DNA from: Bacteroidales bacterium
GTDB lineage: Bacteria > Bacteroidota > Bacteroidia > Bacteroidales > UBA3663
Length of the DNA stretch: 64,000 nt
Assembly: GCA_045628525.1 (NCBI GenBank)
Contig: JAZQPJ010000034.1
Location: forward strand, 4,061 to 68,060
Direction of reading: 5' to 3'
Shown here: in pieces, positions 14,875-54,090 of the stretch
How positions within the stretch are numbered: the stretch's first letter is position 1
Layout: each line of letters begins with the position of its first letter
Notes under the pieces: model-generated
The model's database searches: none
What the model was told of the DNA's origin: nothing
What the model saw: only the letters and a program-made list of their open reading frames with translations
Position numbers and translations under genes: made by a program

Positions 14875-15160
14875 TGCAATAGTCCGACTTGGATCTGAGT
14901 CGGACTATTGCAGATCTGCAAAAGCATGTCGCAAGACAGAATATGTAATTGTAAATCTGCAGCAGTCCGACCTGGATCCAAGTCGGACTGCTGCGGCTCT
15001 TCAATAGTCCGACTTGATACCGTGTCGGACTGTCGCGCGTTTGCAATAGTCCGACTTGGTACCGTGTCGGACTGTCGCACGTTTGCAATAGTCCGACTTG
15101 GGTTCAGGTCGGACTGTCGCGCGTTTGCATTAGTCCGACTTGGGTTCAGGTCGGACTTTT
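14875..15160. repeat. Array of six palindromic units (AGTCCGAC-N10-GTCGGACT); the last four are in exact 42-bp register
   Basis: Left half-sites at 14881, 14964, 15006, 15048, 15090 and 15132. A conserved 16-bp linker GTCGCRCGTTTGCAAT separates units; the first two stems extend to 13-14 bp. Confidence 0.9.
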
Positions 15161-15255
15161 GTAAAACTTAAGTGCATTTAAACCTTCTAATACGATCATC
15201 GTCCTAAAGACAAAGAACGAAACTTGTATTATTAACACTTTAATACCTTAGAATT

Positions 15256-16047
15256 ATGAAGAAGATGTTCATGACCATGATGCTCGTCATCATCGCAGCC
15301 GCACAGGTATTCGCAATGTCAAACAGCAGCATCCGCCAGCACGCCCGTTTCCTGAGCGACCGCATGGCTTACGAGCTCGACCTGACTCCGTATCAGTACG
15401 ACGACGTGTATGAGATCAACTACGACTTCATCTACAGCATCGATCGCTATATGGACGATGTAGTTTATGGCTACCACGATGCCATCGAGCGCTACTATCG
15501 CTTGCTTGACTATCGCAACGAGGATCTGCGCTTCGTACTCAATGCGCGCCAGTATGCCAAGATGCTGACCCGCGACTACTTCTATCGTCCGGTGTATAGC
15601 AATGGCCGGAGCTGGTACTTCCGCATCTATACGATCTACAGCAACCGTAACTTCTTCTATTACGATGCACCAACCGTGTATAAGAGCTATCGCGGCGGTC
15701 ACTCGCAGGGCAGCTACAACCACAACTACTACAACCAGCGCCATCATCATGACAGCTACGGCCAGCAGTCGGCCATCCACGGCTCAAGCAGCTACCAGGA
15801 GCATGGTCGCAACGACTTCGGCGTAAACCGTCGCGAGCGTGGCAACAAGCACCAGAACGAGATCAACAACTACAACAACCACAACCAGCACAACCGCACC
15901 CAGGATCCTCGCTACCAGGATAATAGCGGCAACCACAATTCGCCACAGATCAATAACCGTGGGCAGCAGGGTGGCCAGGGCAAACCGCAGGACAGCAAGC
16001 AGGGCAATAGCCAGCAGGGCGGCGGTGCCAAGTCGGGAAGAAGATGA
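15256..16047 (+). CDS. Secreted protein with a conserved Tyr-rich N-terminal domain and a His/Asn/Gln/Gly-rich tail (paralog of 31673-32719)
   Basis: Signal peptide MKKMFMTMMLVIIAAAQVFA. About 125 aa align with the other copy (DRMAYEL.LTP.QY, MDDVVYGY, LDYRNEDLR). Confidence 0.8.
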   Translation: MKKMFMTMMLVIIAAAQVFAMSNSSIRQHARFLSDRMAYELDLTPYQYDDVYEINYDFIYSIDRYMDDVVYGYHDAIERYYRLLDYRNEDLRFVLNARQYAKMLTRDYFYRPVYSNGRSWYFRIYTIYSNRNFFYYDAPTVYKSYRGGHSQGSYNHNYYNQRHHHDSYGQQSAIHGSSSYQEHGRNDFGVNRRERGNKHQNEINNYNNHNQHNRTQDPRYQDNSGNHNSPQINNRGQQGGQGKPQDSKQGNSQQGGGAKSGRR

Positions 16048-16093
16048 GGGATTGAGGTGCGAACGCCTCAACACGATGGCTGAAAAATAAGAT

Positions 16094-16126
16094 GCCCCCT
16101 CGCTACAAATGGTGTGGCGAGGGGGC
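16094..16126. terminator. Bidirectional hairpin terminator (GCCCCCTCGC/GCGAGGGGGC)
   Basis: A 10-bp GC-rich perfect stem between convergent genes. Confidence 0.6.
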
Positions 16127-16127
16127 G

Positions 16128-16160
16128 TTGTCATGATTGTCAATTGTCATGATTGTCATT
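16128..16160. repeat. 16-bp tandem repeat GTCATGATTGTCAATT x2 (ATTGTCA sub-repeat)
   Basis: Direct reading; it lies just downstream of the SDR gene stop. Confidence 0.8.
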
Positions 16161-16194
16161 AAGCATTTGCCATTTAGCAGTTGCGCTCATGCAA

Positions 16195-17004
16195 TTACTT
16201 AGGCTGCTTGCCGATGTAGGCGAGGATGCCGCCATCGACGTAGAGCACATGGCCGTTGACAGCGTCAGAAGCCTTAGAGGCGAGGAAGACGGCTGGGCCA
16301 CCGAGCTCAGATGGGTCGAGCCAACGGCCGGCAGGGGTCTTAGCCACGATGAATGAGTCGAATGGGTGACGGCTACCATCTGGCTGACGCTCGCGGAGTG
16401 GTGCTGTCTGTGGGGTGGCGATGTAGCCAGGGCCGATGCCGTTGCACTGGATGTTGTACTCGCCATACTCTGAGCAGATGTTGCGGGTGAGCATCTTGAG
16501 GCCACCCTTGGCAGCTGCATAGGCGCTGACGGTTTCGCGGCCAAGCTCAGACATCATAGAGCAGATGTTGATGATCTTGCCTTCGCGACGCTCCATCATC
16601 TCGGGGAGCACGGCGCTGGCGCAGATGTATGGGGCCACGAGGTCGATGTCGATGACCTGCTGGAACTCGGCGCGCTTCATCTCGTGCATTGGGATGCGCT
16701 TGATGATGCCGGCGTTGTTGACGAGGATGTCGATCTGGCCGACCTCCTGGTGAACCTTCTCGACCAGGGCCTTGACGCCCTCTTCGTCGGTCACGTCGCA
16801 GACGTAGCCCTTGACGTTATCGATGCCTGCCTCCTTGTAGTTGGCAAGGCCGCGCTCGAGAGCTGCCTCGTTGATATCGTTGAAGATGATGGTCTTGGCA
16901 CCAGCGGCTACGAATGCCTTGGCGATGTTGAAACCGATGCCGTAAGATGCGCCGGTGATCCAGGCGTTCTTACCTTCGAGGGAGAATGCTTTCAATGATT
17001 CCAT
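16195..17004 (-). CDS. SDR-family oxidoreductase, gluconate 5-dehydrogenase / KduD-like
   Basis: TGASYGIG, NNAG and YAAAKGG motifs. The start was set at MESLKAF (ATG 17004). Confidence 0.85.
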   Translation of the reverse strand: MESLKAFSLEGKNAWITGASYGIGFNIAKAFVAAGAKTIIFNDINEAALERGLANYKEAGIDNVKGYVCDVTDEEGVKALVEKVHQEVGQIDILVNNAGIIKRIPMHEMKRAEFQQVIDIDLVAPYICASAVLPEMMERREGKIINICSMMSELGRETVSAYAAAKGGLKMLTRNICSEYGEYNIQCNGIGPGYIATPQTAPLRERQPDGSRHPFDSFIVAKTPAGRWLDPSELGGPAVFLASKASDAVNGHVLYVDGGILAYIGKQPK

Positions 17005-17038
17005 TTTGATAAGATTTATGATGTTAGTGGATGATTGT

Positions 17039-17079
17039 TTCGAGGTTTCGATAATTCGAGGTTTCGATGCTTCGAGGGG
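17039..17079. repeat. 16-bp tandem repeat TTCGAGGTTTCGATRM x2.5 in the LacI-SDR spacer
   Basis: Direct reading; related to the TTYGARG family. Confidence 0.8.
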
Positions 17080-17083
17080 AAAC

Positions 17084-18109
17084 TCAGATGGCACTTTCGC
17101 GCAGGATCAGATCGTGGTTGACGATGAGGTGCGCCGGGTGCTGCGTCTCGTCCTCGATTTCGCCGAGGCGGCTGAGCAGGAGGGTGGCTGCCATCTCGCC
17201 GATGCGCTGCTGATGCAGGTCGAACGAGGTGAGGGGTGTGGACAGATAATTGTCGAAGGGCTCGTTGGCCACGCCGATGATGGCGATGTCCCGGGGCACG
17301 TTGAGGCCCTTGCGGCGGAAGAGGTCGATGGCGGTGATGGCCGGGAAGTCGCCGGCCGAGAAGATGGCATCGGGACGATCCTGCATGGTGAGGATGCTCT
17401 GTGCGGCTTCGGTTCCTGCCTCGATGGTGATGGTGTTGCTGAACAGCCACTCGGGGCGGCATTCAAGGTCGAGATCTGCAAGCGCCTTGCAGTAGCCGTT
17501 GTAGCGGTCGGCATACGCCTTCTGGGCGAGAGGGCCGGCGAAGTGTCCGATCTTGCGGCATCCAAGCTTGTAGAGTTGCTGCACGGCATCGTAGCCTATC
17601 TGGAAGTTGTCGTTGGTCACCGAATCGGTGTCCTGCTGGGTGGCAGGCAGACGGTCGAAATAGACGAGCGGAATCTTGTGCTGGGCAAGGAGCGTCTCGT
17701 AGATGGGGTTCTGTGTCCTGGCCGAGAGTGAGAGGGCGATGCCATCGACCTTCTTCGAGATAAGGGCCTTGATGGCGTTTTCCTCCTGCTCCTGGCTCTC
17801 GTTGCTGGCAGCGATGATGACCTGGTAGCCGTACTTGTCGGCCATCTTCTGGAACGAACTGATGATGGTGGCAAAGAAGTTGCGGTCGATACGAGGCACC
17901 ACGATGCCGAGGACATTGCCTTTGCCCGTGCGCAGGTGGTGAGCTACAGGGTCGGGGATGTAATTGAGTTCCTTGGCCAGCTTCTGCACGGCTTGTCGCA
18001 TCTTGAGGCTGATGCGTGGATTGTTCTGCAGGGCGCGTGACACGGTCGAGGCCGTGGTGTGAAGCTGCTGCGCCAGATCGTAGATGGTCACTTTGCCATT
18101 CTCGCTCAT
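17084..18109 (-). CDS. LacI-family transcriptional regulator
   Basis: N-terminal HTH VTIYDLAQQLHTTASTVSRALQN plus a periplasmic-binding-protein-like sugar-binding core. Confidence 0.9.
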   Translation of the reverse strand: MSENGKVTIYDLAQQLHTTASTVSRALQNNPRISLKMRQAVQKLAKELNYIPDPVAHHLRTGKGNVLGIVVPRIDRNFFATIISSFQKMADKYGYQVIIAASNESQEQEENAIKALISKKVDGIALSLSARTQNPIYETLLAQHKIPLVYFDRLPATQQDTDSVTNDNFQIGYDAVQQLYKLGCRKIGHFAGPLAQKAYADRYNGYCKALADLDLECRPEWLFSNTITIEAGTEAAQSILTMQDRPDAIFSAGDFPAITAIDLFRRKGLNVPRDIAIIGVANEPFDNYLSTPLTSFDLHQQRIGEMAATLLLSRLGEIEDETQHPAHLIVNHDLILRESAI

Positions 18110-18172
18110 GGGTGTATAAGATGTTTGGTTGGTTGTCTTAGGTGTTAATATGTAATTTCGACTTGCCGAATT

Positions 18173-18187
18173 GTGTCAAATCGACAC
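18173..18187. promoter_or_regulatory. Candidate LacI-type operator GTGTCAAATCGACAC
   Basis: A 5+5 bp inverted repeat immediately downstream of the -7 box of the lacI-family gene. Confidence 0.3.
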
Positions 18188-18189
18188 CG

Positions 18190-18197
18190 CAAAGTTA
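18190..18197 (-). promoter_or_regulatory. -7 promoter box (TAACTTTG) for the LacI-SDR unit
   Basis: Matches TAnnTTTG about 80 nt upstream of ATG 18109. Confidence 0.4.
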
Positions 18198-18309
18198 AAC
18201 CATTATTTCTTTTTTTGCAAATTTTTGAGCAAAAAAATGCGCAACGAGTATTATTTTGTTGCATAAAGAGACGAAAACAGCGATTTTGACGCGCAATTGA
18301 TTGTGCAAA

Positions 18310-19236
18310 TCACACCAACGCAGCGTGGCATCGGGCAATGTAGCCAGGCGCGAACCATTGCTGGCAGAGGGGTTGTGGCTGGGCAAAGATGCCGAACAGC
18401 GCCGAACCCGAACCCGACATGCTGGCATAGAGGGCACCGTGCTGATAGAGCAGATCCTTGGCTTGCTGCAGCTCGGGATGCAGGGGGAAGACGGAGGTCT
18501 CGAAGTCATTGCGCACACAATCCTTCCACTGGGTGAGCGGACGCTGGAGCAGGTCGCACAGGTCGATGGCCGGCTGCTGCGGATGCACATTGCTGTAGGC
18601 CTCCTTGGTGCTCACACCGAACGGCGGCTTGACCACCACGATGTGATAGCCCAGCAGGGTGAGGGGGTGGGGTTGGAGCTCGTGGCCGATGCCTTCGCAA
18701 TACTGAGCCACCATGCGGCCATCGTTGCACGCCGTGTTGTAGAGGCTGCCGCAACGGCAGAAGAAGGCGCAGTCGGCACCCATGCCGGCAGCCAGGGCTT
18801 CGAGTTCGGCATCGGTGATGTCGAGCTGGAACATGTGACGCAACATGAGCAGGGCATGGGCACCGTCGCTGCTGCCACCGCCCAAGCCGGCACCGAAGGG
18901 TACCTCCTTCTGCAAGTGCATATCGACGGCAGGCAAGTCGGGGTAGCGCTCCTGGAGCAGACGGTAAGCCTTGACGCAGAGGTTCAGCTCAGGATCACAA
19001 TTGACCTGGATGCCCGTCTGGAACCATCGGATGCGGCCATCGGCCGTGGTTTGGAAAGTGCTCTGTGGCAATGCCTCGCCCTGCAGGCGGATCTCGAGGG
19101 CATCGCGCCAGTCGATGGGGTAGAAGAGCGTCTGCAGGATGTGGTAGCCATCAGGGCGGCGACGTGTGACGAAGAGGCCGAGGTTGATCTTGGCTTGCGG
19201 GAAGAGGATTTCCTTGTCGGCAGGAGTTGCGTTCAT
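18310..19236 (-). CDS. ispE: 4-(cytidine 5'-diphospho)-2-C-methyl-D-erythritol kinase
   Basis: GHMP kinase motif PFGAGLGGGSSDGA and N-terminal AKINLGLFV. The start was set at MNATPADK because a -7 box lies in the longer ORF. Confidence 0.9.
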   Translation of the reverse strand: MNATPADKEILFPQAKINLGLFVTRRRPDGYHILQTLFYPIDWRDALEIRLQGEALPQSTFQTTADGRIRWFQTGIQVNCDPELNLCVKAYRLLQERYPDLPAVDMHLQKEVPFGAGLGGGSSDGAHALLMLRHMFQLDITDAELEALAAGMGADCAFFCRCGSLYNTACNDGRMVAQYCEGIGHELQPHPLTLLGYHIVVVKPPFGVSTKEAYSNVHPQQPAIDLCDLLQRPLTQWKDCVRNDFETSVFPLHPELQQAKDLLYQHGALYASMSGSGSALFGIFAQPQPLCQQWFAPGYIARCHAALV

Positions 19237-19272
19237 AATATTATATTTAATGTGTATGACATTTTTGCGCTG

Positions 19273-19280
19273 CAAAGATA
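19273..19280 (-). promoter_or_regulatory. -7 promoter box (TATCTTTG) for ispE
   Basis: Matches TAnnTTTG about 37 nt upstream of ATG 19236. Confidence 0.5.
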
Positions 19281-19441
19281 ATCATTTTAGTCGAATAATA
19301 GAAAAGAATTGACAAAAAACTTAAGATTGACCCCGAAAAACGGCATCACGAAGTCGAAATGCTTTGACATTTTGTCGTGGCACGGAGTTTGCAAGGCGTT
19401 GATCGTAAAACAAACAACCCGAAAATAATAAAACAGACAAT

Positions 19442-20026
19442 ATGGAACAGAACGAAAACAAGAACTACGAGGAGCCAATCAACGAGGCCCAGGATCAGGA
19501 AACCGCCAACGAGCAGGACAACGTGAACAACCCAGAGGAGAGCGCCGAAGAGAAAAAGGAACAAAACCCTGAAGAGAAGCTCGAAGCCCTAGAAGCCGAG
19601 CTGGCTGCGATGAAGGACAAGTACCTGCGCCAGGCAGCCGAGTTTGACAACTACCGCAAGCGCACCATCCAGGAGAAGGCCGACTTGCTGAAGTATGGCG
19701 CACAGAAGGCCGTAGAGGCGCTGTTGCCTGTGGTTGACGACATCGAGCGTGCCATGCAGCACATCGAGAAGGCAGAGGACGTAGAGAGCGTGAAGGAGGG
19801 CATGACGTTGATCTACCAGAAGTTTCAGAAATATCTGGAGCAGCAGCAGGTTTCAGTCATCCCTGCAAGCCAAGGCGACGACTTCGACGACAGCATCCAT
19901 GAAGCTGTCACCATGTTTCCGGCACCCGATCCATCACTTAAGGGTAAGGTTGTCGATTGCGTTACGAAGGGCTACAAGTTGTATGACAAGGTGGTTCGTT
20001 TCGCGAAAGTAGTAGTGGGACAATAA
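19442..20026 (+). CDS. grpE: Nucleotide exchange factor GrpE
   Basis: Acidic N-terminus, a coiled-coil ([17 protein letters not shown]) and a C-terminal beta domain. Confidence 0.95.
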
Positions 20027-20030
20027 TTTT

Positions 20031-21110: not shown

Positions 21111-21147
21111 TTGTATAATTCATAATTGAAAAATCATAATATCACGT

Positions 21148-21402: not shown

Positions 21403-21423
21403 GTTTGCATATTTATTAAAAAA

Positions 21424-21506: not shown

Positions 21507-21510
21507 CAGC

Positions 21511-31672: not shown

Positions 31673-32719
31673 TTATCTGCGGCCGCCACGTTCACCATGG
31701 CTTCCACCACCGTGGTTGCCGTGGTTGTTGCCGTTGCCTTCGCTACGGTTGCCATGGCTACCTGATGAACGCTCGTGTGAGCGGGTTCCTCCATTGGCTC
31801 GTTGCTCGTGCGAATGAGCGGCCTGGTTTGAACGCTGATCGTGAGAACGGTTGGCAGAAGAGCGTTCCGATGAACGATGCTGCTTTTCAGGGCGGATATT
31901 GCCTTGGTTGCCATGTTTGTTGTTGCCACCTTGGCCAGCATTGCCATGGTTACCGTGGTTGTTTCCGCCGCCTTGACCGGCATTGCCATGGTCGTTGTGA
32001 CCGCCGTTGCTGTGGTCGTTGCGGTTGCCATGACCACCATTGTTGTGACCGCCGTTGCCATGGTTGTTGTTGTGGCCACCAGGACGTGCGTCGTGGTTGT
32101 TGTGTCCGTTGCTGTTATGATGGCCACCATGATCGCGGTGATGGTAACGATTGCCAAAATCGTTGTGACGATGGGTTTCGTAATGAGGACCGCGGAGGAT
32201 AGGAGCGGGGACAGCGTGATGTGGGTGGCTGTAACGATTCACGTAGAAGCCGCCATGATGATGGTGGTGGCTGTGCAGGCCGTGGTAGGTATGATAGCAG
32301 TTGGGCAAACCATAATAGTAATAGTGATGGTTGTGATATACATCATAGATGCGGAATGCCCAGCGACGTGCTGTGGTGTAGATTGGACGGAAGAAATAGT
32401 CCAAACCCATGAAGATGCCGTACTGTGTAGCGTTGAGGATGTAACGCAGATCCTCGTTGCGGTAGTCGAGATAGTCGTAGTATGTGTCGATGGCATCAGA
32501 GTAGCCATACACTACATCGTCCATCAGGTTATTTGCCTCGTAGATGAAGTCGTAGTTGACCTCAAAGCAGTCTTCGTACTGAGCAGGGGTGAGCTGCAAC
32601 TCGTAAGCCATGCGGTCGGTGAGGAAACGTGCTGTCTCACGAATGCGTGCATCGCTCATTGCCATTACGCTCATCAGGGTGAGCAGCGGCAGGGCCAGGG
32701 TTAGAAAAAGTCTTTTCAT
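31673..32719 (-). CDS. Secreted protein with a conserved Tyr-rich N-terminal domain and a very long His/Asn/Gly-rich tail (paralog of 15256-16047)
   Basis: Signal peptide MKRLFLTLALPLLTLMSVMA. The N-terminal domain is homologous to the 15256 product. The tail is full of HGN/HNN/GGH repeats. Confidence 0.8.
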   Translation of the reverse strand: MKRLFLTLALPLLTLMSVMAMSDARIRETARFLTDRMAYELQLTPAQYEDCFEVNYDFIYEANNLMDDVVYGYSDAIDTYYDYLDYRNEDLRYILNATQYGIFMGLDYFFRPIYTTARRWAFRIYDVYHNHHYYYYGLPNCYHTYHGLHSHHHHHGGFYVNRYSHPHHAVPAPILRGPHYETHRHNDFGNRYHHRDHGGHHNSNGHNNHDARPGGHNNNHGNGGHNNGGHGNRNDHSNGGHNDHGNAGQGGGNNHGNHGNAGQGGNNKHGNQGNIRPEKQHRSSERSSANRSHDQRSNQAAHSHEQRANGGTRSHERSSGSHGNRSEGNGNNHGNHGGGSHGERGGRR

Positions 32720-39737: not shown

Positions 39738-39975
39738 GTTCTTCGATTCGAGACGTCGAAAAGCATGTCCGGAATCTTGGCGAAGGAATTCGAGTTGTCG
39801 AATAGTTTGTCCGGACCTTGTGACAAGGAATTCGAGCCGTCGAAAAGGCTGTCTGGATTCTTGGACAAGGAATTCGAGCCGTCGAAGAGCCTATCCGAAA
39901 CCTCAGACAAAGATTTCGAGCCGTCGAAAAGCATGTCATAGAACTCTGGCAAAGATTTCGAGACGTCGAACTCTA
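39738..39975. repeat. Tandem array of about 5.6 units in exact 42-bp register (ATTCGAGCCGTCGAAAAGSMTGTCYGGAWYCTTGGMCAAGGA)
   Basis: TTCGAG anchors at 39747, 39789, 39831, 39873, 39915 and 39957. Each unit carries TTCGA-N4-TCGAA and CCTTG/CAAGG mini-palindromes. Confidence 0.9.
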
Positions 39976-39977: not shown

Positions 39978-41684
39978 TTATCGTTCTTCAGATGCTGTTA
40001 CTACATTGATGATGTAGTCACCGATCTTTTCGCATTCATTGATGAGCATCATGAAAAACGTACTTTGCTGATATTGCACCTCGTTGCGGTCAAATTGATC
40101 CAATACGGAGTTACGATATTGATTGCGGAAGTTGTTGATCTCGTCCTCGATGTTGAATGCTTTGTTCAGAGCGCTTGACGTCACTTCGTCCATGTCCATC
40201 AGCTTGAGCATGTGCTGCAAGGCATCGTCGGTGAGAGCGAACATCTTGTTTACATTCGTGTTGAGCTCAGGACTGAAGCGTACCCGTTGCTCGCTCTTGC
40301 TGTACAAGGTGGCAGACAGGTGATAGATGGAATCGGCAATGGATTCAAGTTCATCGACGATCTTGTACAGATTGCGACACAACTGCTCACCTTGCCCAGA
40401 CAGCGATTTAGGTGAGATCTTGTTGAGGAAGTCCGCAATTTCCATCTCTGCCCGATCGCTTTCCTGCTCCATCGTCCGCACTTGGTCATCGATCTGCAAC
40501 TGACGCTCAGAACCAAGCGGTTCGGACAACATCTCACGAACAAGCGAGAACATGATATAGACATTCTCACCATATCTTGTCGCTTCTTTCTGCACTTGAG
40601 CCAAAGCCATTTCGCTTGATGAAATGATGCCAGAGGTGATGAATTGCAGCTTGAATGACTGTTCGGAGTCGGGTTCTGTCTCTGGCGTGTTCCTGGAAAC
40701 AAGGCGTACAAACTGATGACGCAAAGGCAACAACAAGAGCATCGTCACGACATTGAAAGCTGTATGGAAAAGGGCCAGACCGGCTGGCATGTTTTCCTGA
40801 AGGTTCGGATTGCCTAAGCCGATGCTTTCGCAGCAATAGGCAATCGTGGATTCTCCGTCTGCCAGTTTTCCATTGAAAATAAAATACAAGCCAAGCATCA
40901 GCAGGAGCACCCAAAGCATTCCAATAAAATTAAATAGGAAATGTAACAGGGCTGCACGTCGTGCCATGGCATTGGCCTTTCGTGCTGCAATCAATGGAGG
41001 TATGCAAGTGCCGATATTGGCCAATACGATGAGTGCGCAGCCAAGATCGAACGATATCCATTCAGACACACACAGCAGTAGGGCGATGAGGAAGGTGATG
41101 GTTGACGAACGGAACAGAACGGTTAGCAGCAATCCGCTCAGCAAGACAACTGATACCGACAATACATACAGATATCCCTCTCCATCGAGCCCCTGGGGCA
41201 ACCACGTACCATCCATCTGGTGGAATGAAACCTGCATGAAGTGGATGCTAATGACCAGAAGTGCTATGCCAATGATCAGTTCACCCCATGAGACAGACGA
41301 TCCCTTGCGGAATCCGAAGAGCGGAATCGTTATGGCAACCAGCGGAAAAGCCCAGAGATAAGCGTCGAAATTGAAGCACAGGAGCGCAATGAGCCAGGCG
41401 GTGATGGTTGTGCCGATGTTGGCACCCATGATGACAGATGCTGATTGCGAAAGCGTGATCAATCCGGCGTTGGTGAACGAAACCGCCATCATGGTTACAG
41501 CAGTTGATGACTGAACCAGAGCGGTGACACCAAGGCCGGTGAACATACCTGTCAGGGCATTGCCTGTCATGGCTGATTGCGCATGACGCAGCACATCACC
41601 CGCAATCTTTTGCAGATTGTCGCTGATGAGCTGCATGGCAAACAGGAAGAGGCCAATGGAGCCGATGAGGGTCAGTAGTGTCAT
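39978..41684 (-). CDS. Na+/phosphate cotransporter family protein (second copy) with a C-terminal PhoU-like domain
   Basis: QSSTAVTMMAVSF and GANIGTTITAW motifs, and the same architecture as 4571-6253. Confidence 0.9.
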   Translation of the reverse strand: MTLLTLIGSIGLFLFAMQLISDNLQKIAGDVLRHAQSAMTGNALTGMFTGLGVTALVQSSTAVTMMAVSFTNAGLITLSQSASVIMGANIGTTITAWLIALLCFNFDAYLWAFPLVAITIPLFGFRKGSSVSWGELIIGIALLVISIHFMQVSFHQMDGTWLPQGLDGEGYLYVLSVSVVLLSGLLLTVLFRSSTITFLIALLLCVSEWISFDLGCALIVLANIGTCIPPLIAARKANAMARRAALLHFLFNFIGMLWVLLLMLGLYFIFNGKLADGESTIAYCCESIGLGNPNLQENMPAGLALFHTAFNVVTMLLLLPLRHQFVRLVSRNTPETEPDSEQSFKLQFITSGIISSSEMALAQVQKEATRYGENVYIMFSLVREMLSEPLGSERQLQIDDQVRTMEQESDRAEMEIADFLNKISPKSLSGQGEQLCRNLYKIVDELESIADSIYHLSATLYSKSEQRVRFSPELNTNVNKMFALTDDALQHMLKLMDMDEVTSSALNKAFNIEDEINNFRNQYRNSVLDQFDRNEVQYQQSTFFMMLINECEKIGDYIINVVTASEER

Positions 41685-42403
41685 CGCAGGTTATTGATTG
41701 AAGTTTCAAATGATTCGCGGTATGTCTTTCCCATGGGGACTTCCTCGCCCGAAGTGAGCAGGACCGACTGGGTATTGTAGCTGCACACGTGTTTCAATCC
41801 CACTATATAGGAGCGTTGCACACGGGCAAATCGTGCGCTTGGCAATTGTTGCTCGAAGCTGCTGAGCGTGCCGAGTGTCGTAAGCTTGCGACCATCAGAG
41901 AGGACGAGCTGGGTGTAGTCCTTGAACGCTTCGAGACATACGATGTCAGCAACACGGATCATCTCAGTACGGCCTTCGCTGCGAATGCCAATCATCTGAT
42001 CTGCTGATGCTGCGTCCTGTGTCCTTTCGATTTCATGATGCACTTTCGATAGCGCTTGCTTCAGTCTGTCCAGCGTATATGGTTTCAGCAGATAGTCCGT
42101 GACACCATAATTAAATCCGTCGATGGCATACTGATCGTAGGCAGAGGTAATGATGATGGCTGTGCGTCCTGCATCTTTGTTATCTTTGGTATTCTGCAGG
42201 GATTTCAGGAACTCCAGGCCAGTAAGATTGGGCATCTGGATATCAAGGAATATCAAATCGGGGAGCCCCTCTTCTCTGATCGCAGTCTGAAGCTTACTTC
42301 CATCGCCGAAGGTCGAGATGTCTCCACCTTCACCGGCTTTCTCAAGGAAAAGCTTGAGTTTGGCGGCTGCCAATGGTTCGTCTTCGGCAATGTAGATTCT
42401 CAT
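41681..42403 (-). CDS. LytTR-family response regulator (receiver + LytTR DNA-binding domain)
   Basis: MRIYIAEDEPLA...FLDIQMPNLTG receiver and a C-terminal LytTR region. Its stop overlaps the nptA start (ATGA). Confidence 0.9.
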   Translation of the reverse strand: MRIYIAEDEPLAAAKLKLFLEKAGEGGDISTFGDGSKLQTAIREEGLPDLIFLDIQMPNLTGLEFLKSLQNTKDNKDAGRTAIIITSAYDQYAIDGFNYGVTDYLLKPYTLDRLKQALSKVHHEIERTQDAASADQMIGIRSEGRTEMIRVADIVCLEAFKDYTQLVLSDGRKLTTLGTLSSFEQQLPSARFARVQRSYIVGLKHVCSYNTQSVLLTSGEEVPMGKTYRESFETSINNLR

Positions 42404-49388: not shown

Positions 49389-49402
49389 TAAGGTATTATA
49401 CA

Positions 49403-50020
49403 ATGAAAGTAGCAATCATCAAATACAATGCAGGCAATATCTATAGCGTTTATTGTGCCTGCAAGCGCTTGGGTGCCGAGGCTGTGATTACCGACGATCC
49501 CGAGGTGATCCGCTCTGCCGACCGCGTCATCTTCCCTGGCGTAGGCGAGGCACGTGCAGCCATGGACTATCTGCGCGAGCATGGTCTTGACCTGTTGATC
49601 CGAAGCCTCAGGCAACCTGTGCTGGGCATCTGCATCGGCATGCAGCTGATGTGCCGGGAGAGCGAAGAGGGTGCGGCAGATGGCCGAAATACGGAATGTC
49701 TTGGCATTTTCGACGTTCCTGTGCAGCGCTTCCGTCCCGCAGATGCTGACCTCAAGGTTCCGCAGATGGGTTGGAACCAGGTGGCCCCTACTGTCGATAC
49801 CCCATTGTTCGACGGCATTACGGCCGAGGATTACGTCTATTACGTGCATTCCTATCGCGTACCTCTCTCAGCCTACACTATCGCTACCACCGAGTATGGC
49901 GAAGTCTATAGCGCCGCCCTGCATAAAGACAACTTCTGGGCCACGCAGTTCCATCCCGAGAAGTCGGGTTCCATAGGGGAGCAGATCCTCAAGAACTTTA
50001 TTTTCACAGCTCGTAAATAG
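49403..50020 (+). CDS. hisH: Imidazole glycerol phosphate synthase, glutamine amidotransferase subunit
   Basis: PGVGEA, the nucleophile motif GICIGMQL and QFHPEKS. Confidence 0.95.
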   Translation: MKVAIIKYNAGNIYSVYCACKRLGAEAVITDDPEVIRSADRVIFPGVGEARAAMDYLREHGLDLLIRSLRQPVLGICIGMQLMCRESEEGAADGRNTECLGIFDVPVQRFRPADADLKVPQMGWNQVAPTVDTPLFDGITAEDYVYYVHSYRVPLSAYTIATTEYGEVYSAALHKDNFWATQFHPEKSGSIGEQILKNFIFTARK

Positions 50021-50039
50021 TCAAATTCCACGTCGTGTT

Positions 50040-50768
50040 ATGATCGAACTCATTCCTGCCATTGACATTATCGATGGCAAACTGGTGCGCCTCTCCAAGG
50101 GCGACTATAATGCCAAGACCGAATACAGCCAAGAGCCGCTCGAAGTGGCCAAGAGCCTCGAAGACATCGGCATACGCCGCCTGCATCTCGTTGACCTGGA
50201 TGGTGCCAAGGGCGGCCACATCGTCAACCATCGCGTGCTTGAGCAGATAGCCACCAACACCCACCTCACCATCGACTTCGGCGGTGGCATCAAGAGCGAC
50301 GAGGATGCTCACATCGCCTTCGAGAGTGGTGCCAGCATGATCACAGGCGGCTCCATTGCCGTCAAATATCCGCAGATGTTCCTGTCATGGCTCGAACGCT
50401 ATGGATCGGATCATATCATCCTCGGCGCCGACATCAAGAACGGCTGCATAGCCGTACAGGGCTGGCTTGAGTCGAGCGATGCTCGCTGGCAGACCTTCCT
50501 GCAGAGTTATGTGTCGCGTGGCGTCAGCCAGGTCATCAGCACCGACATCTCGCGCGACGGCATGCTCTCCGGTCCCGCCACCGAACTCTATAAGGACATG
50601 ATGGCCGAGTTTCCAGGTCTCCACGTCACAGCCTCGGGCGGCGTGTCGTGCATGAGCGATGTCTTCCAGCTGCAGGACGCTGGCGTGCCTGCTGTCATCA
50701 TGGGCAAAGCCATCTATGAGGGCCGCATCACCTATCAGGAGATTGAGTCGTTCCTGGCCAAGGGCTAA
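50040..50768 (+). CDS. hisA: 1-(5-phosphoribosyl)-5-[(5-phosphoribosylamino)methylideneamino]imidazole-4-carboxamide isomerase
   Basis: IPAIDIIDGKLVRL start and the HisA/HisF barrel motifs. Confidence 0.95.
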   Translation: MIELIPAIDIIDGKLVRLSKGDYNAKTEYSQEPLEVAKSLEDIGIRRLHLVDLDGAKGGHIVNHRVLEQIATNTHLTIDFGGGIKSDEDAHIAFESGASMITGGSIAVKYPQMFLSWLERYGSDHIILGADIKNGCIAVQGWLESSDARWQTFLQSYVSRGVSQVISTDISRDGMLSGPATELYKDMMAEFPGLHVTASGGVSCMSDVFQLQDAGVPAVIMGKAIYEGRITYQEIESFLAKG

Positions 50769-50831
50769 CCCAGCTTCACACCATCCTAACTCCCTAATTT
50801 CAGAACTCCATAACTTCTTAATTTGAAAATT

Positions 50832-50866
50832 CGAGTCCCACGTCCCACGTAGGACTCGTTTTTTTT
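50832..50866 (+). terminator. Rho-independent terminator after hisA
   Basis: CGAGTCCCACG/CGTAGGACTCG stem followed by T8. Confidence 0.8.
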
Positions 50867-50949
50867 ATATTATGTTTCAAAAATGAAACAAAGACTACGA
50901 TTTTTGATACCATTTATCACATGTGCACGTATGTTACATAATAACTTAT

Positions 50950-50957
50950 TATCTTTG
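50950..50957 (+). promoter_or_regulatory. -7 promoter box (TATCTTTG) for the GH9 gene
   Basis: Matches TAnnTTTG about 47 nt upstream of ATG 51004. Confidence 0.5.
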
Positions 50958-51003
50958 CAGCGTTGTTTCACATACTCTCATTCATCAAAATATATCAAAT
51001 CTT

Positions 51004-53550
51004 ATGAAAAAACAACTATTCCTAACCCTCGCCGCTGGCTTCCTGCTTGCTTCGTGCAGCGGAAACAAGACTGGCGAACAGGCATTGATGCTGAATGACC
51101 TCGACTATTTCGAGGAGCAGGGCGTGAACGTGCTGGTCTATAGCAACGACTTCAACGGCGGCTTCAATGACGAGAAGAACTCGGGCATCGAGCTCATTCA
51201 CCACGGCGTTCGTACCGTGCAGGGTGGTGCCGTGCGTCTGAACAAGACCCCCGAGCAGTGGGACCTCGTTCCCAAAACCACCAACCGCGTGGTGAATCAT
51301 GAGGACAACTCCATCGAGGTGAGCCTCCGTTACGAAGACTACGATTTCGATTCGCGCGTCGTCGTTACCGGCAAGGGCAAGGCTGTGGAGATTGCCGTCT
51401 ATCTGGACAAGCCCGTGCCAGAGCAGTTGGTGGGCGATGCAGGTTTCAACCTGGAGTTCCTGCCATCGCAGTACTGGGCCAAGACCTACATGATGGATGG
51501 CCGCCTGAACCGCTTCCCACGCATCGCAGCCAGCGAGACCGTCACCCGTCCCAACTCGGAGAAAGCCAAGCAGTTCAAGGGCTTCAAGACCTACGACGAC
51601 CGCGGCACCGACCGCTTCATCGATCCGCTTCCACTCGAGACCGGCCACACCATCCTCATGGCACAGGACGCTCCTGAGCGCATGATCAAGGTCACCAGCG
51701 AGGATGCCGAACTCAAGCTCTACGACGGCCGCATGCTCGCTCAGAACGGCTGGTTTGTGCTCCGTTCTGAGCTCCCGGCAGGCAAGACCGGCAAGGTCAT
51801 CACCTGGACCCTTGAGCCAAACGCCATTCAGGGCTGGGTGCGCGAGCCGAACATCGGCTTCTCACAGGTAGGCTATCTGCCCGAGCAGCCGAAGGTGGCT
51901 GTCATCGAGCTCGACAAGGTCGATCAGCCACGCTCTACCGCCAGCGTCCATCGCGTGATGCCCGACGGCTCTGTAAAGCAGGCTTATAGCGGCAAGACCA
52001 CCACCTGGGGCCGTTACTTCAAGTATAACTATGTGAAGTTCGACTTCTCGGAGGTTACCGAGCCAGGCGTTTACTACATCCAGTATGGCGACACCAAGAC
52101 CAACAACTTCATCATCGACAAGACCGTCTATGACAAGATTACCGATGCAACCAGCGACGTCTGGATCCCAATCCACATGAACCACATGACCGTCAACGAG
52201 GGCTATCGCATCTGGCACGGCGAGCCATTCAAGGAGGGCTACCTCCAGGCTCCTGAGTCTGACCACTTCGACCTCCACTGGCAGAAGCAGTCCGACACCA
52301 AGTACAAGCCATACCAGCTCATCCCAGGCCTGAACGTAGGTGGCTTCTTCGATGCCGGCGACTACGACATCGAGACCGGTTCGAACATCTCCGTTGTGCA
52401 GAACTTCGTATCTGCCTGGGAGCTCTTCCACTCAGAGCGCGACGAGACCTTCGTCAGCCAGGAGCAGCGCTACGTTGACCTGCATCGTCCAGACGGCAAG
52501 CCAGACCTCCTGCAGTTCATCGAGCACGGCACCCTCAACCTTGTGACCCAGGCTGAGGTCATCGGCCACATGTCGCAGACCTTGTCGAACGGTGTACTCG
52601 ACAACTATCACCACCTCGGCGACATCTCGGCCATTACCGATGGTCTGCATTATGACCCATCGCTCAAGCCATACGAGAAGTCAGCCGACGGCAAGCGCAG
52701 CGGCACCAACGACGACCTCTGGGCATTCACCACACGCAATCCTCAGCTTGACTTCCGCGGCGCCACCATGCTCGCAGCTGCCAGCCGTGCGCTTGAGGGT
52801 TACAACGATGCCCTTGCCAAGCGTGCCCTCGTGCAGTCGAAGCGTCTCATGGCCGAGGCTACCGAGCTCATGAAGAAGAACGGTCGCGTGGACAACGAGC
52901 GCGACAGCCTGGCACGTGCTGGCTTCGGCAACATGGCCACCAACCTCCAGCTCTTTGCCGCCACCGGTGAGCAGCAGTACCTTGAAGCCTTCGAGGGCCA
53001 GATCTGGAAGGCTCTCGACCGCAACGTCGAAGCCTCGATCAAGGTGGCACTCGACGGCATCCCATACATGAACGATGCCTATCGCGAGAAGCTCCGTCCA
53101 TACGTCGAGAAGTTCAACGAGAGCATCAAGGCCCTTGAGGAGGACAATCCTTATGGTGTGCCCATCGGCCTCGGCAACTGGGCAGGCAGCACACAGGTTG
53201 CCACCTGGGGTACCACCGTCTGCTTCGCTTCGAAGTATTATCCTGACATTGTGAGCAAGAACGAGGCCTACAAGGCTGCAGCCTGGATCTTCGGCTGTCA
53301 CCCATATCACAACTACTCACTCGTTGCCGCCGTGGGTGCAGCCCGTCCAAAGGCTGTATTCTATGGCAACAACCGCGCCGACTTCTCGTTCATTCCAGGC
53401 AACATGGCACCAGGCCTCCTGTTCCGCAAGCCTGACCACTTCGAGAACTACGACGATTGGCCGTTCCTTTGGGGTCAGAACGAGGGCACCATCGCTGGCA
53501 ATACCCTCTACCTGATCTTCGGTTCTGCTTTCAAGGACCTTGAGAAGTAA
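51004..53550 (+). CDS. Glycoside hydrolase family 9 lipoprotein (N-terminal Ig-like domain + GH9 catalytic domain)
   Basis: Lipobox LLASCSG and the GH9 signature GGFFDAGDYD. The start was set at MKKQLF. Confidence 0.85.
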   Translation: MKKQLFLTLAAGFLLASCSGNKTGEQALMLNDLDYFEEQGVNVLVYSNDFNGGFNDEKNSGIELIHHGVRTVQGGAVRLNKTPEQWDLVPKTTNRVVNHEDNSIEVSLRYEDYDFDSRVVVTGKGKAVEIAVYLDKPVPEQLVGDAGFNLEFLPSQYWAKTYMMDGRLNRFPRIAASETVTRPNSEKAKQFKGFKTYDDRGTDRFIDPLPLETGHTILMAQDAPERMIKVTSEDAELKLYDGRMLAQNGWFVLRSELPAGKTGKVITWTLEPNAIQGWVREPNIGFSQVGYLPEQPKVAVIELDKVDQPRSTASVHRVMPDGSVKQAYSGKTTTWGRYFKYNYVKFDFSEVTEPGVYYIQYGDTKTNNFIIDKTVYDKITDATSDVWIPIHMNHMTVNEGYRIWHGEPFKEGYLQAPESDHFDLHWQKQSDTKYKPYQLIPGLNVGGFFDAGDYDIETGSNISVVQNFVSAWELFHSERDETFVSQEQRYVDLHRPDGKPDLLQFIEHGTLNLVTQAEVIGHMSQTLSNGVLDNYHHLGDISAITDGLHYDPSLKPYEKSADGKRSGTNDDLWAFTTRNPQLDFRGATMLAAASRALEGYNDALAKRALVQSKRLMAEATELMKKNGRVDNERDSLARAGFGNMATNLQLFAATGEQQYLEAFEGQIWKALDRNVEASIKVALDGIPYMNDAYREKLRPYVEKFNESIKALEEDNPYGVPIGLGNWAGSTQVATWGTTVCFASKYYPDIVSKNEAYKAAAWIFGCHPYHNYSLVAAVGAARPKAVFYGNNRADFSFIPGNMAPGLLFRKPDHFENYDDWPFLWGQNEGTIAGNTLYLIFGSAFKDLEK

Positions 53551-53611
53551 TTTGCACCTTTGCTGAAAGTCAAAGAGTTGCAAAAACATTTGTTGCAATC
53601 AAAAAATATTT

Positions 53612-53640
53612 GCGCCCGGCACAAAAAATGTGTCGGGCGC
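53612..53640 (+). terminator. Hairpin terminator after the GH9 gene
   Basis: GCGCCCGGCACA-AAAAA-TGTGTCGGGCGC (one G-U pair), followed by GTTTCGTT. Confidence 0.6.
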
Positions 53641-53652
53641 GTTTCGTTCAGT

Positions 53653-54090
53653 AGCGGTGGCATGTCGAAAGAGATGGAAAAAGCGCTGAAAATGTGCTGA
53701 AAGTTCGCAAATCCATTAGGAATGCCTCTGCAAGTGTGCGGAAGGGCGGAAAATGATTTTTTGCGGCTCAGCAGATCTGCGGAGGGTTTCCAAAAGTTTT
53801 TTTTGCGGCTCCGCACGTTTGCGAAAGCTCTACAAAAAGTTTTTCTGTGACTCTGCAAATCTGCGGAAGCTCTCCAAAAGTTTTTCCAAGGCTCAGCAAA
53901 CTGTCGGAGCTCAGAAAATGTTTTAGCGAAGGTTTTGCAGGTTTGCAGAGGCATTCCTAAAGATTTTGTGTCCGCTCCGCATGTTTGCATCACCTTTTCG
54001 ATGCGATTTGCAGATTCAGTGCGAGCTCGCATCACCTTTTCGATGCGATTTGCAGATTCAATGCAAGTTCGCGTCACTTTTCCTGATGCT
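53653..54090. repeat. Degenerate tandem array of about 10 units holding a 40-42-bp register; the last 2.5 units are near-identical (GCATCACCTTTTCGATGCGATTTGCAGATTCARTGCRAGYTC)
   Basis: Unit anchors at 53695, 53737, 53778, 53820, 53862, 53904, 53944 and 53986/53987, then 54029 and 54071. The final unit runs into the 3' end of the DUF2851 gene. Confidence 0.8.

What the first reader, a model, noticed from the sequence alone, without database searches (positions are those of the whole stretch)
14875..54090. Cross-locus observation: three unrelated-looking arrays share one 42-bp period
The arrays at 14875-15160, 39738-39975 and 53653-54090 have different unit sequences but the same period of 42 bp. 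That equals 14 codons, which explains why all are open in several frames, and 4.0 turns of B-DNA, which places every unit on the same helical face. All units contain short inverted repeats. All lie in 3' or intercistronic positions. Two of the three begin within 27 bp of the stop codon of a PhoU-fused phosphate transporter. A common mechanism is implied, for example a protein or recombinase that measures 42 bp, or a structural nucleoid or RNA-processing element. I do not recognise this as a described repeat class in Bacteroidota. None has CRISPR-like unique spacers.
Basis: inference. Interest (0 to 1): 0.78.

Follow-up and report, generated by a model that had tools for sequence, protein, structure and literature searches.

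The report
Lineage-wide 42-bp intergenic minisatellites
Three gaps between genes in this Bacteroidales genome hold young, non-coding tandem repeats that share only a 42-bp unit length and mirror symmetry; close relatives follow the same length rule at other places, which points to an unexplained physical ruler, possibly the pitch of the DNA helix.

Summary
The window has four non-coding arrays with a period of exactly 42 bp: 14875-15165, 39746-39975, 53757-53925 and 53987-54090. Their unit sequences are unrelated. The shared period is not chance. About 100 kb from close relatives adds three more 42-bp arrays, one of 41 bp and one of 49 bp, all with new units. That makes 7 of 9 at 42 bp and none at 22 bp. 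In 2.4 Mb of other Bacteroidales/Bacteroidota DNA, non-coding repeat periods peak sharply at 22 bp (40 arrays), with further arrays at 11, 33, 44 and 66 bp, and only 2 at 42 bp. The arrays are young and made locally. One is absent in a relative whose transporter is 94% identical. One was seeded by the 3' end of its neighbouring gene. One shows gene conversion between near-identical strains. Units are dyad-symmetric. They are not coding, not CRISPR and match no Rfam family. They are not tied to phosphate transporters or to 3' positions. The closest precedent is the 22/23/41-nt tandem repeats of Porphyromonas gingivalis (BrickBuilt, MITE464/PgRS). My best guess for the ruler is helical phasing, 4 turns of about 10.5 bp. 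A weak AA/TT periodicity difference (10.6 versus 11.1 bp) is compatible with this, but it is not proven.

The parts
14875..15165 (+). Array 1: seven 42-bp units, one of them decayed (about 14917-14958). Each intact unit is a 26-38-nt near-perfect palindrome (AGTCCGAC-N10-GTCGGACT core) plus a linker. It starts 27 bp after the PHO4 stop. The last hairpin is followed by TTTTGTAAAA.
   Evidence: In-register pairing is 86.8% against 25-35% when slid. Unit folds are -20 to -31 kcal/mol, z -3.7 to -10.7. Self reverse-complement E=5e-18. Absent in the 94% and 90% relatives L084 and L169.
12578..14848 (+). PHO4-family phosphate transporter upstream of array 1. No PhoU domain was detected.
   Evidence: Pfam PF01384 E=2.6e-26. 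C-terminal 237 aa gives no PhoU hit at E<=1.
39746..39975 (-). Array 2: about 5.4 units of 42 bp, each with TTCGA-N4-TCGAA and a weaker TGTCC-N8-GGACA dyad. It lies between the stop of the Na/Pi-PhoU gene (39978) and the start of thymidine kinase (39697).
   Evidence: L001 (99% relative) has the same number of units, but unit 3 is converted to resemble unit 5. L002 (83%) has 4 units of about 43/42/40 bp, so the reading frame is not kept. L003 (62%) has none. Units do not fold better than shuffles (z 0.17).
39978..41684 (-). Na+/Pi cotransporter with a C-terminal PhoU domain, upstream of array 2. It overlaps a LytTR response-regulator gene (41681-42403).
   Evidence: Pfam PF02690 E=1.3e-43 and PF01895 E=4.5e-9.
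53611..53641 (+). Canonical, apparently bidirectional intrinsic terminator after the GH9 gene. It bounds the array 3 region on the left.
   Evidence: 13-pair stem followed by TTTCGTT; a minus-strand partner at 53625-53609.
53653..53756 (.). Left part of the array 3 region. It holds decayed units in inverted orientation relative to A3b and includes the left arm (53674-53733) of a 60-nt inverted repeat with the core TTAGGAATGCCTCTGCAA.
   Evidence: arms 73% complementary, 209 nt apart. nhmmer cross-hits between sub-arrays on both strands. The core is conserved in the 87% relatives L086 and L087.
53757..53925 (.). Array 3a: about 4 units of 42 bp (TTTTTTGCGGCTCAGCAAATCTGCGGAAGCTCTCCAAAAGTT) between the inverted-repeat arms.
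   Evidence: Conserved with SNPs in L085 (99%). Short-read contigs of the 87% relatives end here.
53943..54002 (.). Right arm of the 60-nt inverted repeat. It overlaps the start of A3b.
53987..54090 (.). Array 3b: 2.3 units of 42 bp, each made of two about 21-nt hairpin modules (GCATC-N8-GATGC and TTGCA-N7-TGCAA). The last partial unit is the 3' end of the DUF2851 gene, including its stop codon.
   Evidence: L086/L087 (87%) carry a single copy. L085 shows a compensatory GCATC..GATGC to GTATC..GATAC change.
54074..55459 (-). DUF2851 gene whose last codons seeded the A3b unit. Its transcript would run through the whole array 3 region to the terminator at 53625-53609 (inference).
   Evidence: Pfam PF11013 E=2e-105; sequence reading.
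50923..53550 (+). GH9-family glycoside hydrolase, convergent with DUF2851. The array 3 region lies between the two.

Best explanation
SHOWN. The three loci are non-coding, locally generated, fast-evolving minisatellites. Their units are dyad-symmetric and exactly 42 bp long. They belong to a class that recurs through this genus-level Bacteroidales lineage with a different unit sequence at every locus.

SHOWN. Other Bacteroidales/Bacteroidota have the same kind of arrays, but their periods fall at 22 bp, with 11, 33, 44 and 66 bp as further multiples.

INFERRED (mechanism). New arrays start as tandem duplications of hairpin-prone intergenic sequence. They then grow, shrink and homogenise by replication slippage, unequal recombination and gene conversion. 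The common period is not set by a sequence-specific factor. It is set by a DNA-level constraint on which duplications arise or persist, most likely a whole number of helical turns (4 x about 10.5 bp here, 2 x about 11 bp elsewhere). That would keep successive dyads on one face of the helix, for example for a non-specific nucleoid protein or for supercoil geometry.

The positions next to phosphate-transporter genes are incidental. Any effect on neighbouring genes, such as structured 3' UTRs or replacement of a terminator, is a by-product.
For: Period and non-randomness:
- establish the 42-bp period.
- Long-period non-coding arrays in the lineage are 42 bp x7 (window 4, L088 2, L169 1), 41 bp x1 (L003) and 49 bp x1 (L088).
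- Outside the lineage, 42 bp accounts for 2 of 24 arrays with period >=25. By my own binomial estimate from those counts, 7 of 9 at 42 bp has a probability of about 1e-6.

Quantised spectrum elsewhere:
- Non-coding counts are 22 bp 40, against 21 bp 7 and 23 bp 7. There are also 30 at 11 bp, 5 at 33 bp, 3 at 44 bp and 2 at 66 bp, in two independent samples.
- In coding DNA, periods follow multiples of 3 instead.
- An E. coli control of 200 kb has no non-coding array at 11/22/42/44 bp.

Local and young:
- Array 1 is absent in the 94% and 90% relatives, where a plain terminator sits instead.
- A3b is single-copy in the 87% relatives, and its unit contains the end of the DUF2851 gene.
- Array 2 shows unit conversion between 99% strains and indels at 83%.

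Dyad symmetry:
- nhmmer self reverse-complement E-values range from 5e-18 to 5e-5 for the six 41/42-bp arrays tested (A1, A2, A3a, L003, L088a, L088b).
- Unit tests give p from .0005 to .197. My Fisher combination of these is about 4e-7.

No context bias in the wider class: convergent/divergent/tandem counts are 13/8/25 against 9.3/11.7/25 expected from intergenic length.

Helical link: with arrays masked, the AA/TT periodicity peaks at 10.60 bp in 163 kb of the lineage (10.40 for the window alone, 10.70 without the window). Both comparison sets peak at 11.10 bp. An approximately 11-bp periodicity in bacteria is established (PMC4132750, PMC516772).
Against: - The periodicity difference is not significant. 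18% of size-matched subsamples of set A peak at <=10.7 bp. The E. coli control scatters from 9 to 13 bp per 50 kb.
- Helical phasing does not explain why this lineage uses 4 turns and others 2. It also does not explain the 49-bp array.
- A period peak only +-1 bp wide is sharper than soft selection on phasing would predict.
- The units carry no obvious phased A-tracts.
- Only about a third of the 22-bp arrays have a significant palindrome, so hairpins are not a general requirement.
- Weak cross-locus similarity (array 2 against the L003 and L088b units, p=0.003 each; nhmmer E=0.078) hints at descent from a dispersed family. Units are also shared between loci of one genome in L053, L006 and L039.
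- The rest of the source genome could not be retrieved.
Confidence: 0.45

Rival explanations
1. The arrays descend from one dispersed, MITE-borne 42-bp minisatellite family, like MITE464/PgRS (41 nt) and BrickBuilt (23 nt) of P. gingivalis. The period is inherited. The sequences have drifted apart at each locus while concerted evolution keeps the units within an array alike.
For: [quoted passage not shown] Array 3a is flanked by 60-nt inverted arms. The array 2 unit resembles the L003 and L088b units (24/41 and 22/42 matches, p=0.003 each). A homologous array read as an ORF exists elsewhere (P0373). The L169 unit contains GAGACCTTACAAA, close to the BrickBuilt terminal repeat GAGACCTTTGCA. Some genomes carry the same 22-bp unit at two loci.
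Against: Four arrays in one 64-kb window share no detectable sequence. Array 1 is missing from a 94% relative and A3b is built from the local gene end, so these are recent local births and not old insertions. No unit copies occur elsewhere in the window. The window has no transposase. No target-site duplications or shared leader/tail sequences were seen. The inverted-repeat core has no hit in JGI metagenomes, plasmids or phages.
Confidence: 0.25
2. They are functional RNA elements. As tandem stem-loops in 3' UTRs or intercistronic RNA, they would stabilise, terminate or process the transcripts of the upstream genes.
For: All three window arrays lie downstream of a gene on the transcribed strand. 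Array 1 hairpins are very stable, and the last one is followed by a U-rich run where a relative has a plain terminator. A compensatory change occurs in an A3b hairpin. Whole-region folds have z scores of -15.7, -2.5 and -6.6.
Against: Array 2 units fold no better than shuffles. Array 1 covariation is not above shuffles (55/500). There is no Rfam match. The scan finds no terminator in arrays 1 or 2. Relatives carry such arrays between divergent genes. An RNA function gives no reason for a fixed 42-nt unit with unrelated sequences. The arrays are lost without replacement in close relatives.
Confidence: 0.1
3. They are arrays of binding sites for sequence-specific dimeric DNA-binding proteins spaced four helical turns apart, as in the sopC centromere of plasmid F (43-bp units, each with an inverted repeat) or iteron and operator arrays.
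For: The units are dyad-symmetric and spaced 42 bp apart, which puts them on the same helical face. The sopC comparison is from my own knowledge.
Against: Each array would need its own cognate protein. The window has no partition or replication genes. Linkers are as conserved as the dyads, which indicates recent duplication rather than selection on sites. Turnover is rapid and the arrays are absent in close relatives.
Confidence: 0.08
4. They encode 14-residue peptide repeats, either as small ORFs or as C-terminal extensions of the transporters.
For: 42 bp equals 14 codons, and the arrays are open in several frames. Array 2 varies mostly at every third position: 5/4/10 variable sites per codon position, my count, p about 0.05. 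It reads LFDGSNSLS.. in one frame. Gene callers annotate such ORFs.
Against: The frame is broken by indels in the 83% relative. There is no Pfam hit. Hits among 1.84 billion representative proteins are generic LRR and coiled-coil repeats, plus one junk-flanked array ORF. L003 has a 41-bp unit. The window's arrays are open in several frames on both strands, as expected for any stop-free 3n repeat.
Confidence: 0.03
5. The match is a chance coincidence of independent repeats, or an assembly artefact.
For: The source appears to be a short-read metagenome assembly. Contigs of relatives break inside the arrays.
Against: 7 of 9 arrays at 42 bp against a background share of about 8% gives a probability of about 1e-6 (my estimate). 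Units are 74-90% identical, not exact copies. Independent assemblies from different samples reproduce arrays 2 and 3 with SNPs. The 22-bp class also occurs in isolate genomes (L015, L068).
Confidence: 0.03

Closest known systems
MITE464/PgRS (41-nt tandem direct repeats) and BrickBuilt (23-nt) of Porphyromonas gingivalis (PMC4596501)
   Same: Same order (Bacteroidales). Both are intergenic, lack spacers and have imperfect units. [quoted passage not shown] The periods 22/23/41 nt match the 22/42-bp spectrum found here. The A3a sub-array is flanked by inverted repeats.
   Different: The P. gingivalis elements are one sequence family present at about 10-20 loci, with leader/tail segments and IS5-type terminal repeats. 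Here every array has its own unit. At least two arrays arose locally and recently. No shared flanks, terminal repeats, target duplications or transposase were found.
REP/BIME clusters of enterobacteria
   Same: Both are extragenic palindromic units clustered after genes. They could act as mRNA 3' stabilisers or as binding sites for gyrase or nucleoid proteins (from my own knowledge).
   Different: REPs share one consensus genome-wide, occur in hundreds of copies, alternate in orientation within BIMEs and are linked to RAYT transposases. None of this is seen here.
sopC centromere of plasmid F (12 x 43 bp, each with an inverted repeat bound by SopB)
   Same: Both are tandem units about four helical turns long, each carrying a dyad (from my own knowledge).
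   Different: sopC is a single locus on a plasmid with a cognate partition operon. Here there are several chromosomal loci with unrelated sequences and no partition genes.
MIRU-type intercistronic VNTRs of mycobacteria
   Same: Both are tandem units tens of bp long between genes of the same orientation, variable between strains, with a unit length that is a multiple of 3 (from my own knowledge).
   Different: MIRUs are a dispersed sequence family with small ORFs overlapping the flanking stop and start codons. Here there is no such overlap, the frame is not conserved, and the units are dyad-symmetric.

Membership tests
MITE-embedded minisatellite (BrickBuilt / MITE464-PgRS type) | Tandem direct repeats of about 23 or 41 nt without spacers, in intergenic DNA | tested here: met
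   42-bp arrays, all between called genes.
MITE-embedded minisatellite (BrickBuilt / MITE464-PgRS type) | The same repeat unit and the same flanks present at many loci of one genome | tested here: inconclusive
   Within the 64-kb window each unit occurs at one locus only, and the four units are unrelated. The rest of the genome could not be retrieved. Weak similarity of array 2 to arrays in two relatives.
MITE-embedded minisatellite (BrickBuilt / MITE464-PgRS type) | Leader and tail segments ending in IS-type terminal inverted repeats, with target-site duplications | tested here: inconclusive
   A3a has 60-nt imperfect inverted arms, but they do not match the published terminal repeats beyond 8 of 12 positions (my own reading). 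No duplication was seen. Arrays 1 and 2 have no such arms beyond their own palindromes.
REP/BIME | A single palindromic consensus dispersed in many copies, in alternating orientation within clusters | tested here: not met
   Units are direct tandem copies and array-specific.
CRISPR array | Conserved repeats separated by unique spacers, usually with cas genes nearby | tested here: not met
   The whole 42-bp unit repeats. No cas domains were found among the window ORFs scanned.
Partition-site / iteron array (sopC-like) | Tandem dyad-bearing units spaced a whole number of helical turns apart | tested here: met
   42-bp spacing and dyad symmetry.
Partition-site / iteron array (sopC-like) | A cognate partition or replication initiator gene at the locus, in a plasmid or mobile-element context | tested here: not met
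   Neighbours are housekeeping and transport genes. No similarity to plasmids or phages.
Intrinsic terminator | G+C-rich hairpin followed directly by a T run | tested here: not met
   The scan finds none in arrays 1 and 2, and only the 53611-53641 terminator outside array 3. The last array 1 hairpin is followed by TTTTGTAAAA, which is below the scan's threshold.
Known structured RNA family (Rfam) | A match at the family's gathering score | tested here: not met
   0 matches in the window.
Protein-coding 14-residue repeat | Reading frame and peptide conserved in relatives, with homologues in a protein family | tested here: not met
   Frame lost in L002. No Pfam family. Only generic repeat proteins hit.
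MIRU-like intercistronic VNTR | Small ORF in the repeat overlapping the stop and start codons of the flanking genes | tested here: not met
   The array 2 ORF starts 26 nt after the upstream stop and ends 22 nt before the downstream start.

The most novel reading that the evidence does not exclude
Tandem-repeat birth or expansion in Bacteroidales is governed by a lineage-specific physical ruler. This could be the structural period of the DNA as packaged in the cell, or the protein that reads it. Under this reading, intergenic minisatellites of any sequence are quantised to whole numbers of that period: 42/84 bp in this lineage, and 11/22/33/44/66 bp in most others. Minisatellite periods would then be a direct, sequence-readable record of nucleoid architecture. 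The shift from 22 to 42 bp would mark a change in that architecture or in a repeat-generating enzyme.
Probability: 0.3. Interest if true: 0.85.

Novelty: new variant of a known kind. Interest (0 to 1): 0.66.

Why it matters
Bacterial minisatellites are usually treated as locus-by-locus accidents. Here, unrelated sequences at many loci and in many genomes adopt the same unit length, and that length differs between lineages: 42 bp here and 22 bp in other Bacteroidales. Something other than sequence is therefore measuring DNA.

If the ruler is helical or nucleoid geometry, repeat periods become a cheap comparative read-out of chromosome structure in uncultured gut bacteria. They would also offer a handle on the long-debated origin of the roughly 11-bp periodicity of bacterial genomes.

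There are practical consequences. These arrays break short-read assemblies, are mis-annotated as genes, replace terminators, and create strain-level variation next to nutrient-transport genes.

Tried and rejected
- Exact-protein look-ups to find the source contig failed.
- A metagenome scan for the array 3 inverted-repeat core found nothing. The second scan again returned only distant relatives, which I used as an independent comparison set.
- Plasmid and phage BLAST of arrays 3 and 1: no match.
- Rfam and tRNA scans: nothing.
- Sigma-70 promoter scans: nothing. By eye I saw no Bacteroides-type TAnnTTTG motif in the units.
- Higher-order-repeat idea (42 = 2 x 21). The halves of units A1, A2 and A3a match at only about 7 of 21 positions, my hand count, so this is not supported. 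Several units (A3b, L003, A2) do hold two hairpin modules about 21 nt apart.
- Shared-motif idea. TGCAAA and CTGCAA are about 9-fold enriched across array 1 and all parts of array 3. The counts are inflated by within-array copies, so I did not rely on them.
- Coding idea for array 2: rejected.
- Phosphate-transporter association: rejected from orthologous loci. Arrays near PHO4 in 80 relatives are only mildly over-represented, by my rough count.
- LytTR or PhoB binding-site arrays were considered because of the neighbouring regulator genes and the 11-bp TGTAAC repeats upstream of PHO4 in relatives. The 42-bp units show no such direct half-sites.
- Two literature searches for a described 22-bp or helical-period rule for bacterial tandem repeats found nothing beyond the P. 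gingivalis paper. The W83 genome paper is not held.
Full report
**1. Observation.**
Tandem Repeats Finder reports period-42 arrays at 14964-15157 (4.6 copies, 87% matches), 39746-39970, 53757-53912 and 53987-54082. A lag-autocorrelation scan of the whole window independently picks lag 42, with 84 and 126, at exactly these places. It finds no other long period outside ORFs.

- Array 1, laid out in register, has six exact AGTCCGAC-N10-GTCGGACT hairpins, plus one decayed unit.
- Array 2 has six TTCGACGGCTCGAA cores on the minus strand.
- The third 'array' is composite. A 60-nt imperfect inverted repeat (53674-53733 / 53943-54002), with a perfect 18-bp core, flanks sub-array A3a. A second sub-array, A3b, with another unit follows. 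The left flank holds decayed, inverted A3b-like units.

Cyclic alignments of the consensus units show no similarity between arrays. No unit occurs elsewhere in the window.

**2. Context.**
- Array 1 follows a PHO4-family transporter and precedes a 263-aa low-complexity protein.
- Array 2 lies between a Na/Pi-cotransporter-PhoU gene and thymidine kinase, on the same strand.
- Array 3 lies between a convergent GH9 gene and a DUF2851 gene, after the GH9 terminator.

Only one of the two transporters has a detectable PhoU domain. A third Na/Pi-PhoU gene at 4571-6253 has no array. The window encodes no transposase, integrase, cas or partition gene. It has no Rfam or tRNA hit.

**3. The arrays are young, local and non-coding.**
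- Array 2: a 99% relative (L001) keeps six units, but one unit has been converted to resemble another. An 83% relative (L002) has four units of about 43, 42 and 40 bp, which destroys any reading frame. A 62% relative (L003) has none.
- Array 1: relatives whose PHO4 is 94% and 90% identical have a plain hairpin-plus-T-run terminator and another downstream gene instead. A 79% relative also lacks an array.
- Array 3: a 99% relative keeps everything, with about 20 SNPs. These include a compensatory GCATC..GATGC to GTATC..GATAC change. The 87% relatives keep the inverted-repeat core but carry only one copy of the A3b-like unit, and their contigs end inside A3a. A 70% relative has no array there.
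- The last partial A3b unit is the 3' end of the DUF2851 gene itself. This array was therefore made by duplicating local sequence.
- The array 2 peptide (LFDGSNSLS..) has no Pfam family. Among 1.84 billion representative proteins it hits only generic LRR and coiled-coil repeats, plus one junk-flanked array ORF.

**4. The period is a lineage rule.**
Additional DNA from the same lineage contains new arrays, each with a new unit:
- 41 bp x5.2 between divergent genes in L003;
- 42 bp x5.0, 42 bp x7.3 (as an 84-bp higher-order repeat) and 49 bp x2.7, all in one 1.2-kb divergent intergenic region of L088;
- 42 bp x3.4+ in L169.

The lineage therefore has nine independent long-period non-coding arrays in about 163 kb: seven at 42 bp, one at 41, one at 49 and none at 22.

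Outside the lineage I ran TRF on two independent samples, 1.4 Mb from GTDB genomes around PHO4 orthologues and 1.0 Mb from metagenomes around distant Na/Pi orthologues. The non-coding periods are 22 bp x40, against 21 bp x7 and 23 bp x7. There are also 11 bp x30, 33 bp x5, 44 bp x3, 66 bp x2 and 42 bp x2. Coding repeats follow multiples of 3 instead.

With 42 bp accounting for 2 of 24 background arrays of period >=25, seven of nine at 42 bp has a binomial probability of about 1e-6 (my calculation from those counts). An E. coli control of 200 kb, at the same threshold, has no non-coding array at 11, 22, 42 or 44 bp.

**5. Shared anatomy.**
All six 41/42-bp arrays of the lineage that were tested (A1, A2, A3a, L003, L088a, L088b) align to their own reverse complement, with nhmmer E-values from 5e-18 to 5e-5. 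Unit-level tests give p from 0.0005 to 0.197, and my Fisher combination is about 4e-7.

- Array 1 units are near-perfect 26-38-nt palindromes. In-register pairing is 86.8%, against 25-35% when slid. Folds are -20 to -31 kcal/mol.
- A3b, L003 and array 2 units hold two small dyads about 21 nt apart.
- A3a, L088b and L169 units pair end to end.
- Array 2 units have no thermodynamic signal (z 0.17).

In the wider 22-bp class, only about a third of the units have a significant palindrome. Those arrays are spread over convergent, divergent and tandem intergenic regions in proportion to intergenic length. This argues against a dedicated promoter or terminator role.

**6. What sets the period.**
The spectrum looks like whole numbers of helical turns: 1, 2, 3, 4 and 6 turns of about 11 bp in most lineages, and 4 and 8 turns of 10.5 bp here.

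I measured AA/TT periodicity with all repeats masked. It peaks at 10.60 bp in the lineage (10.40 for the window alone, 10.70 for the relatives alone) and at 11.10 bp in both comparison sets. Then 4 x 10.6 = 42.4, 2 x 11.1 = 22.2 and 4 x 11.1 = 44.4.

This agreement is only suggestive. 18% of size-matched subsamples of set A peak at or below 10.7 bp. The E. coli control gives 11.55 bp overall, but 9-13 bp per 50-kb piece. An approximately 11-bp periodicity in bacterial genomes is established (PMC4132750, PMC3372288, PMC516772). A link to minisatellite unit length did not turn up in my literature searches.

**7. Rivals.**
The strongest rival is descent from a dispersed MITE-borne 42-bp family.
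- P. gingivalis has 23-nt (BrickBuilt) and 41-nt (MITE464/PgRS) tandem repeats inside IS5-type MITEs. According to that paper, its W83 genome paper listed 41-, 23- and 22-nt tandem direct repeats (PMC4596501).
- In favour: the inverted arms around A3a; weak similarity of array 2 to the L003 and L088b units (p=0.003 each; nhmmer E=0.078); a GAGACCTTACAAA motif in the L169 unit; and shared 22-bp units at two loci in L053, L006 and L039.
- Against: the recent local births of arrays 1 and 3b, four unrelated units in one window, and the lack of shared flanks or a transposase.

The remaining rivals are RNA-element, sequence-specific protein-site, coding, chance and artefact readings. Each fails at least one direct test, as set out in the rival and membership tables.

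**8. Verdict.**
The inference of a common cause is justified. The proposed links to phosphate transporters, to 3' positions and to RNA processing are not.

The class has a published precedent in P. gingivalis. However, the quantised and lineage-specific period across unrelated sequences appears undescribed, as far as my literature searches reached, and has no explanation in that precedent.

The mechanism I favour is local slippage-driven minisatellites filtered or generated in helical phase. I hold it at moderate confidence. A whole-genome scan of this genus would settle most of the open points.

Noticed in passing
L004-L168 (2.4 Mb of other Bacteroidales/Bacteroidota loci): Non-coding tandem repeats show a sharp period peak at 22 bp (40 arrays, against 7 at 21 bp and 7 at 23 bp), plus 11, 33, 44 and 66 bp. 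Units are locus-specific, but L053, L006 and L039 each carry the same unit at two loci.
   Followed up: partly
window 445-553 and 1397-1471: In-frame 9-bp repeats GGTT(T/C)GAAG lie inside a glycoside-hydrolase ORF (12-1634). The first block is followed by its inverted partner CTCAAACCC x3.6, which gives a long imperfect hairpin within coding sequence. A related TTCGAGG repeat sits at 17037-17077.
   Followed up: no
window 1684-6301 and 11408-14848: A Pho-type gene cluster: histidine kinase, OmpR-type regulator, a second Na/Pi-PhoU transporter (4571-6253, minus strand), phosphate porin and a PHO4 transporter. A 7-bp repeat ATTACAG x5.7 (6262-6301) sits 9-48 bp upstream of the 4571-6253 start. 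The same 7-mer repeat recurs at 12354-12376 and 13458-13483.
   Followed up: no
L014 9909-9935, L021 9913-9941, L034 9908-9930: 11-bp direct repeats containing TGTAAC lie about 60-90 bp upstream of PHO4 in several relatives. They look like Pho-box-type response-regulator sites.
   Followed up: no
window 6900-11100: A low-GC stretch (0.34-0.44, against about 0.52) carries DUF3990, a retropepsin-like aspartyl protease and a Schlafen/AlbA_2 + HATPase_c_4 ORF. That ORF contains a 33-bp in-frame repeat (10754-10876). This may be an acquired or defence island.
   Followed up: no
window 31898-32070: 42-, 24- and 48-bp repeats lie inside an ORF without a Pfam family (31673-32719, minus strand). This is a coding low-complexity repeat whose 42-bp period is probably unrelated to the intergenic class.
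   Followed up: partly
L088 8783-10000: A 1.2-kb intergenic region between divergent genes is packed with ATCGA-rich 8-bp repeats, a 49-bp array, an 84-bp (2 x 42) array and a 42-bp array. It is a repeat island upstream of the DUF2851 orthologue.
   Followed up: partly
L085 1563-2180; L169 1-222; P0373; L086 and L087 contig ends: Gene callers annotate the arrays as proteins (205 aa, 158 aa and 151 aa). Short-read contigs of close relatives terminate inside them. Both are sources of database noise.
   Followed up: partly
window 14849-15255 versus L084 9249-9371 and L169 12287-12409: Array 1 sits at a synteny break. Relatives have porin-PPK-PPX-PHO4-terminator-GH10. The window lacks PPK and PPX and has a His/Asn/Gln-rich 263-aa secreted-looking protein (15256-16047) after the array.
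   Followed up: no
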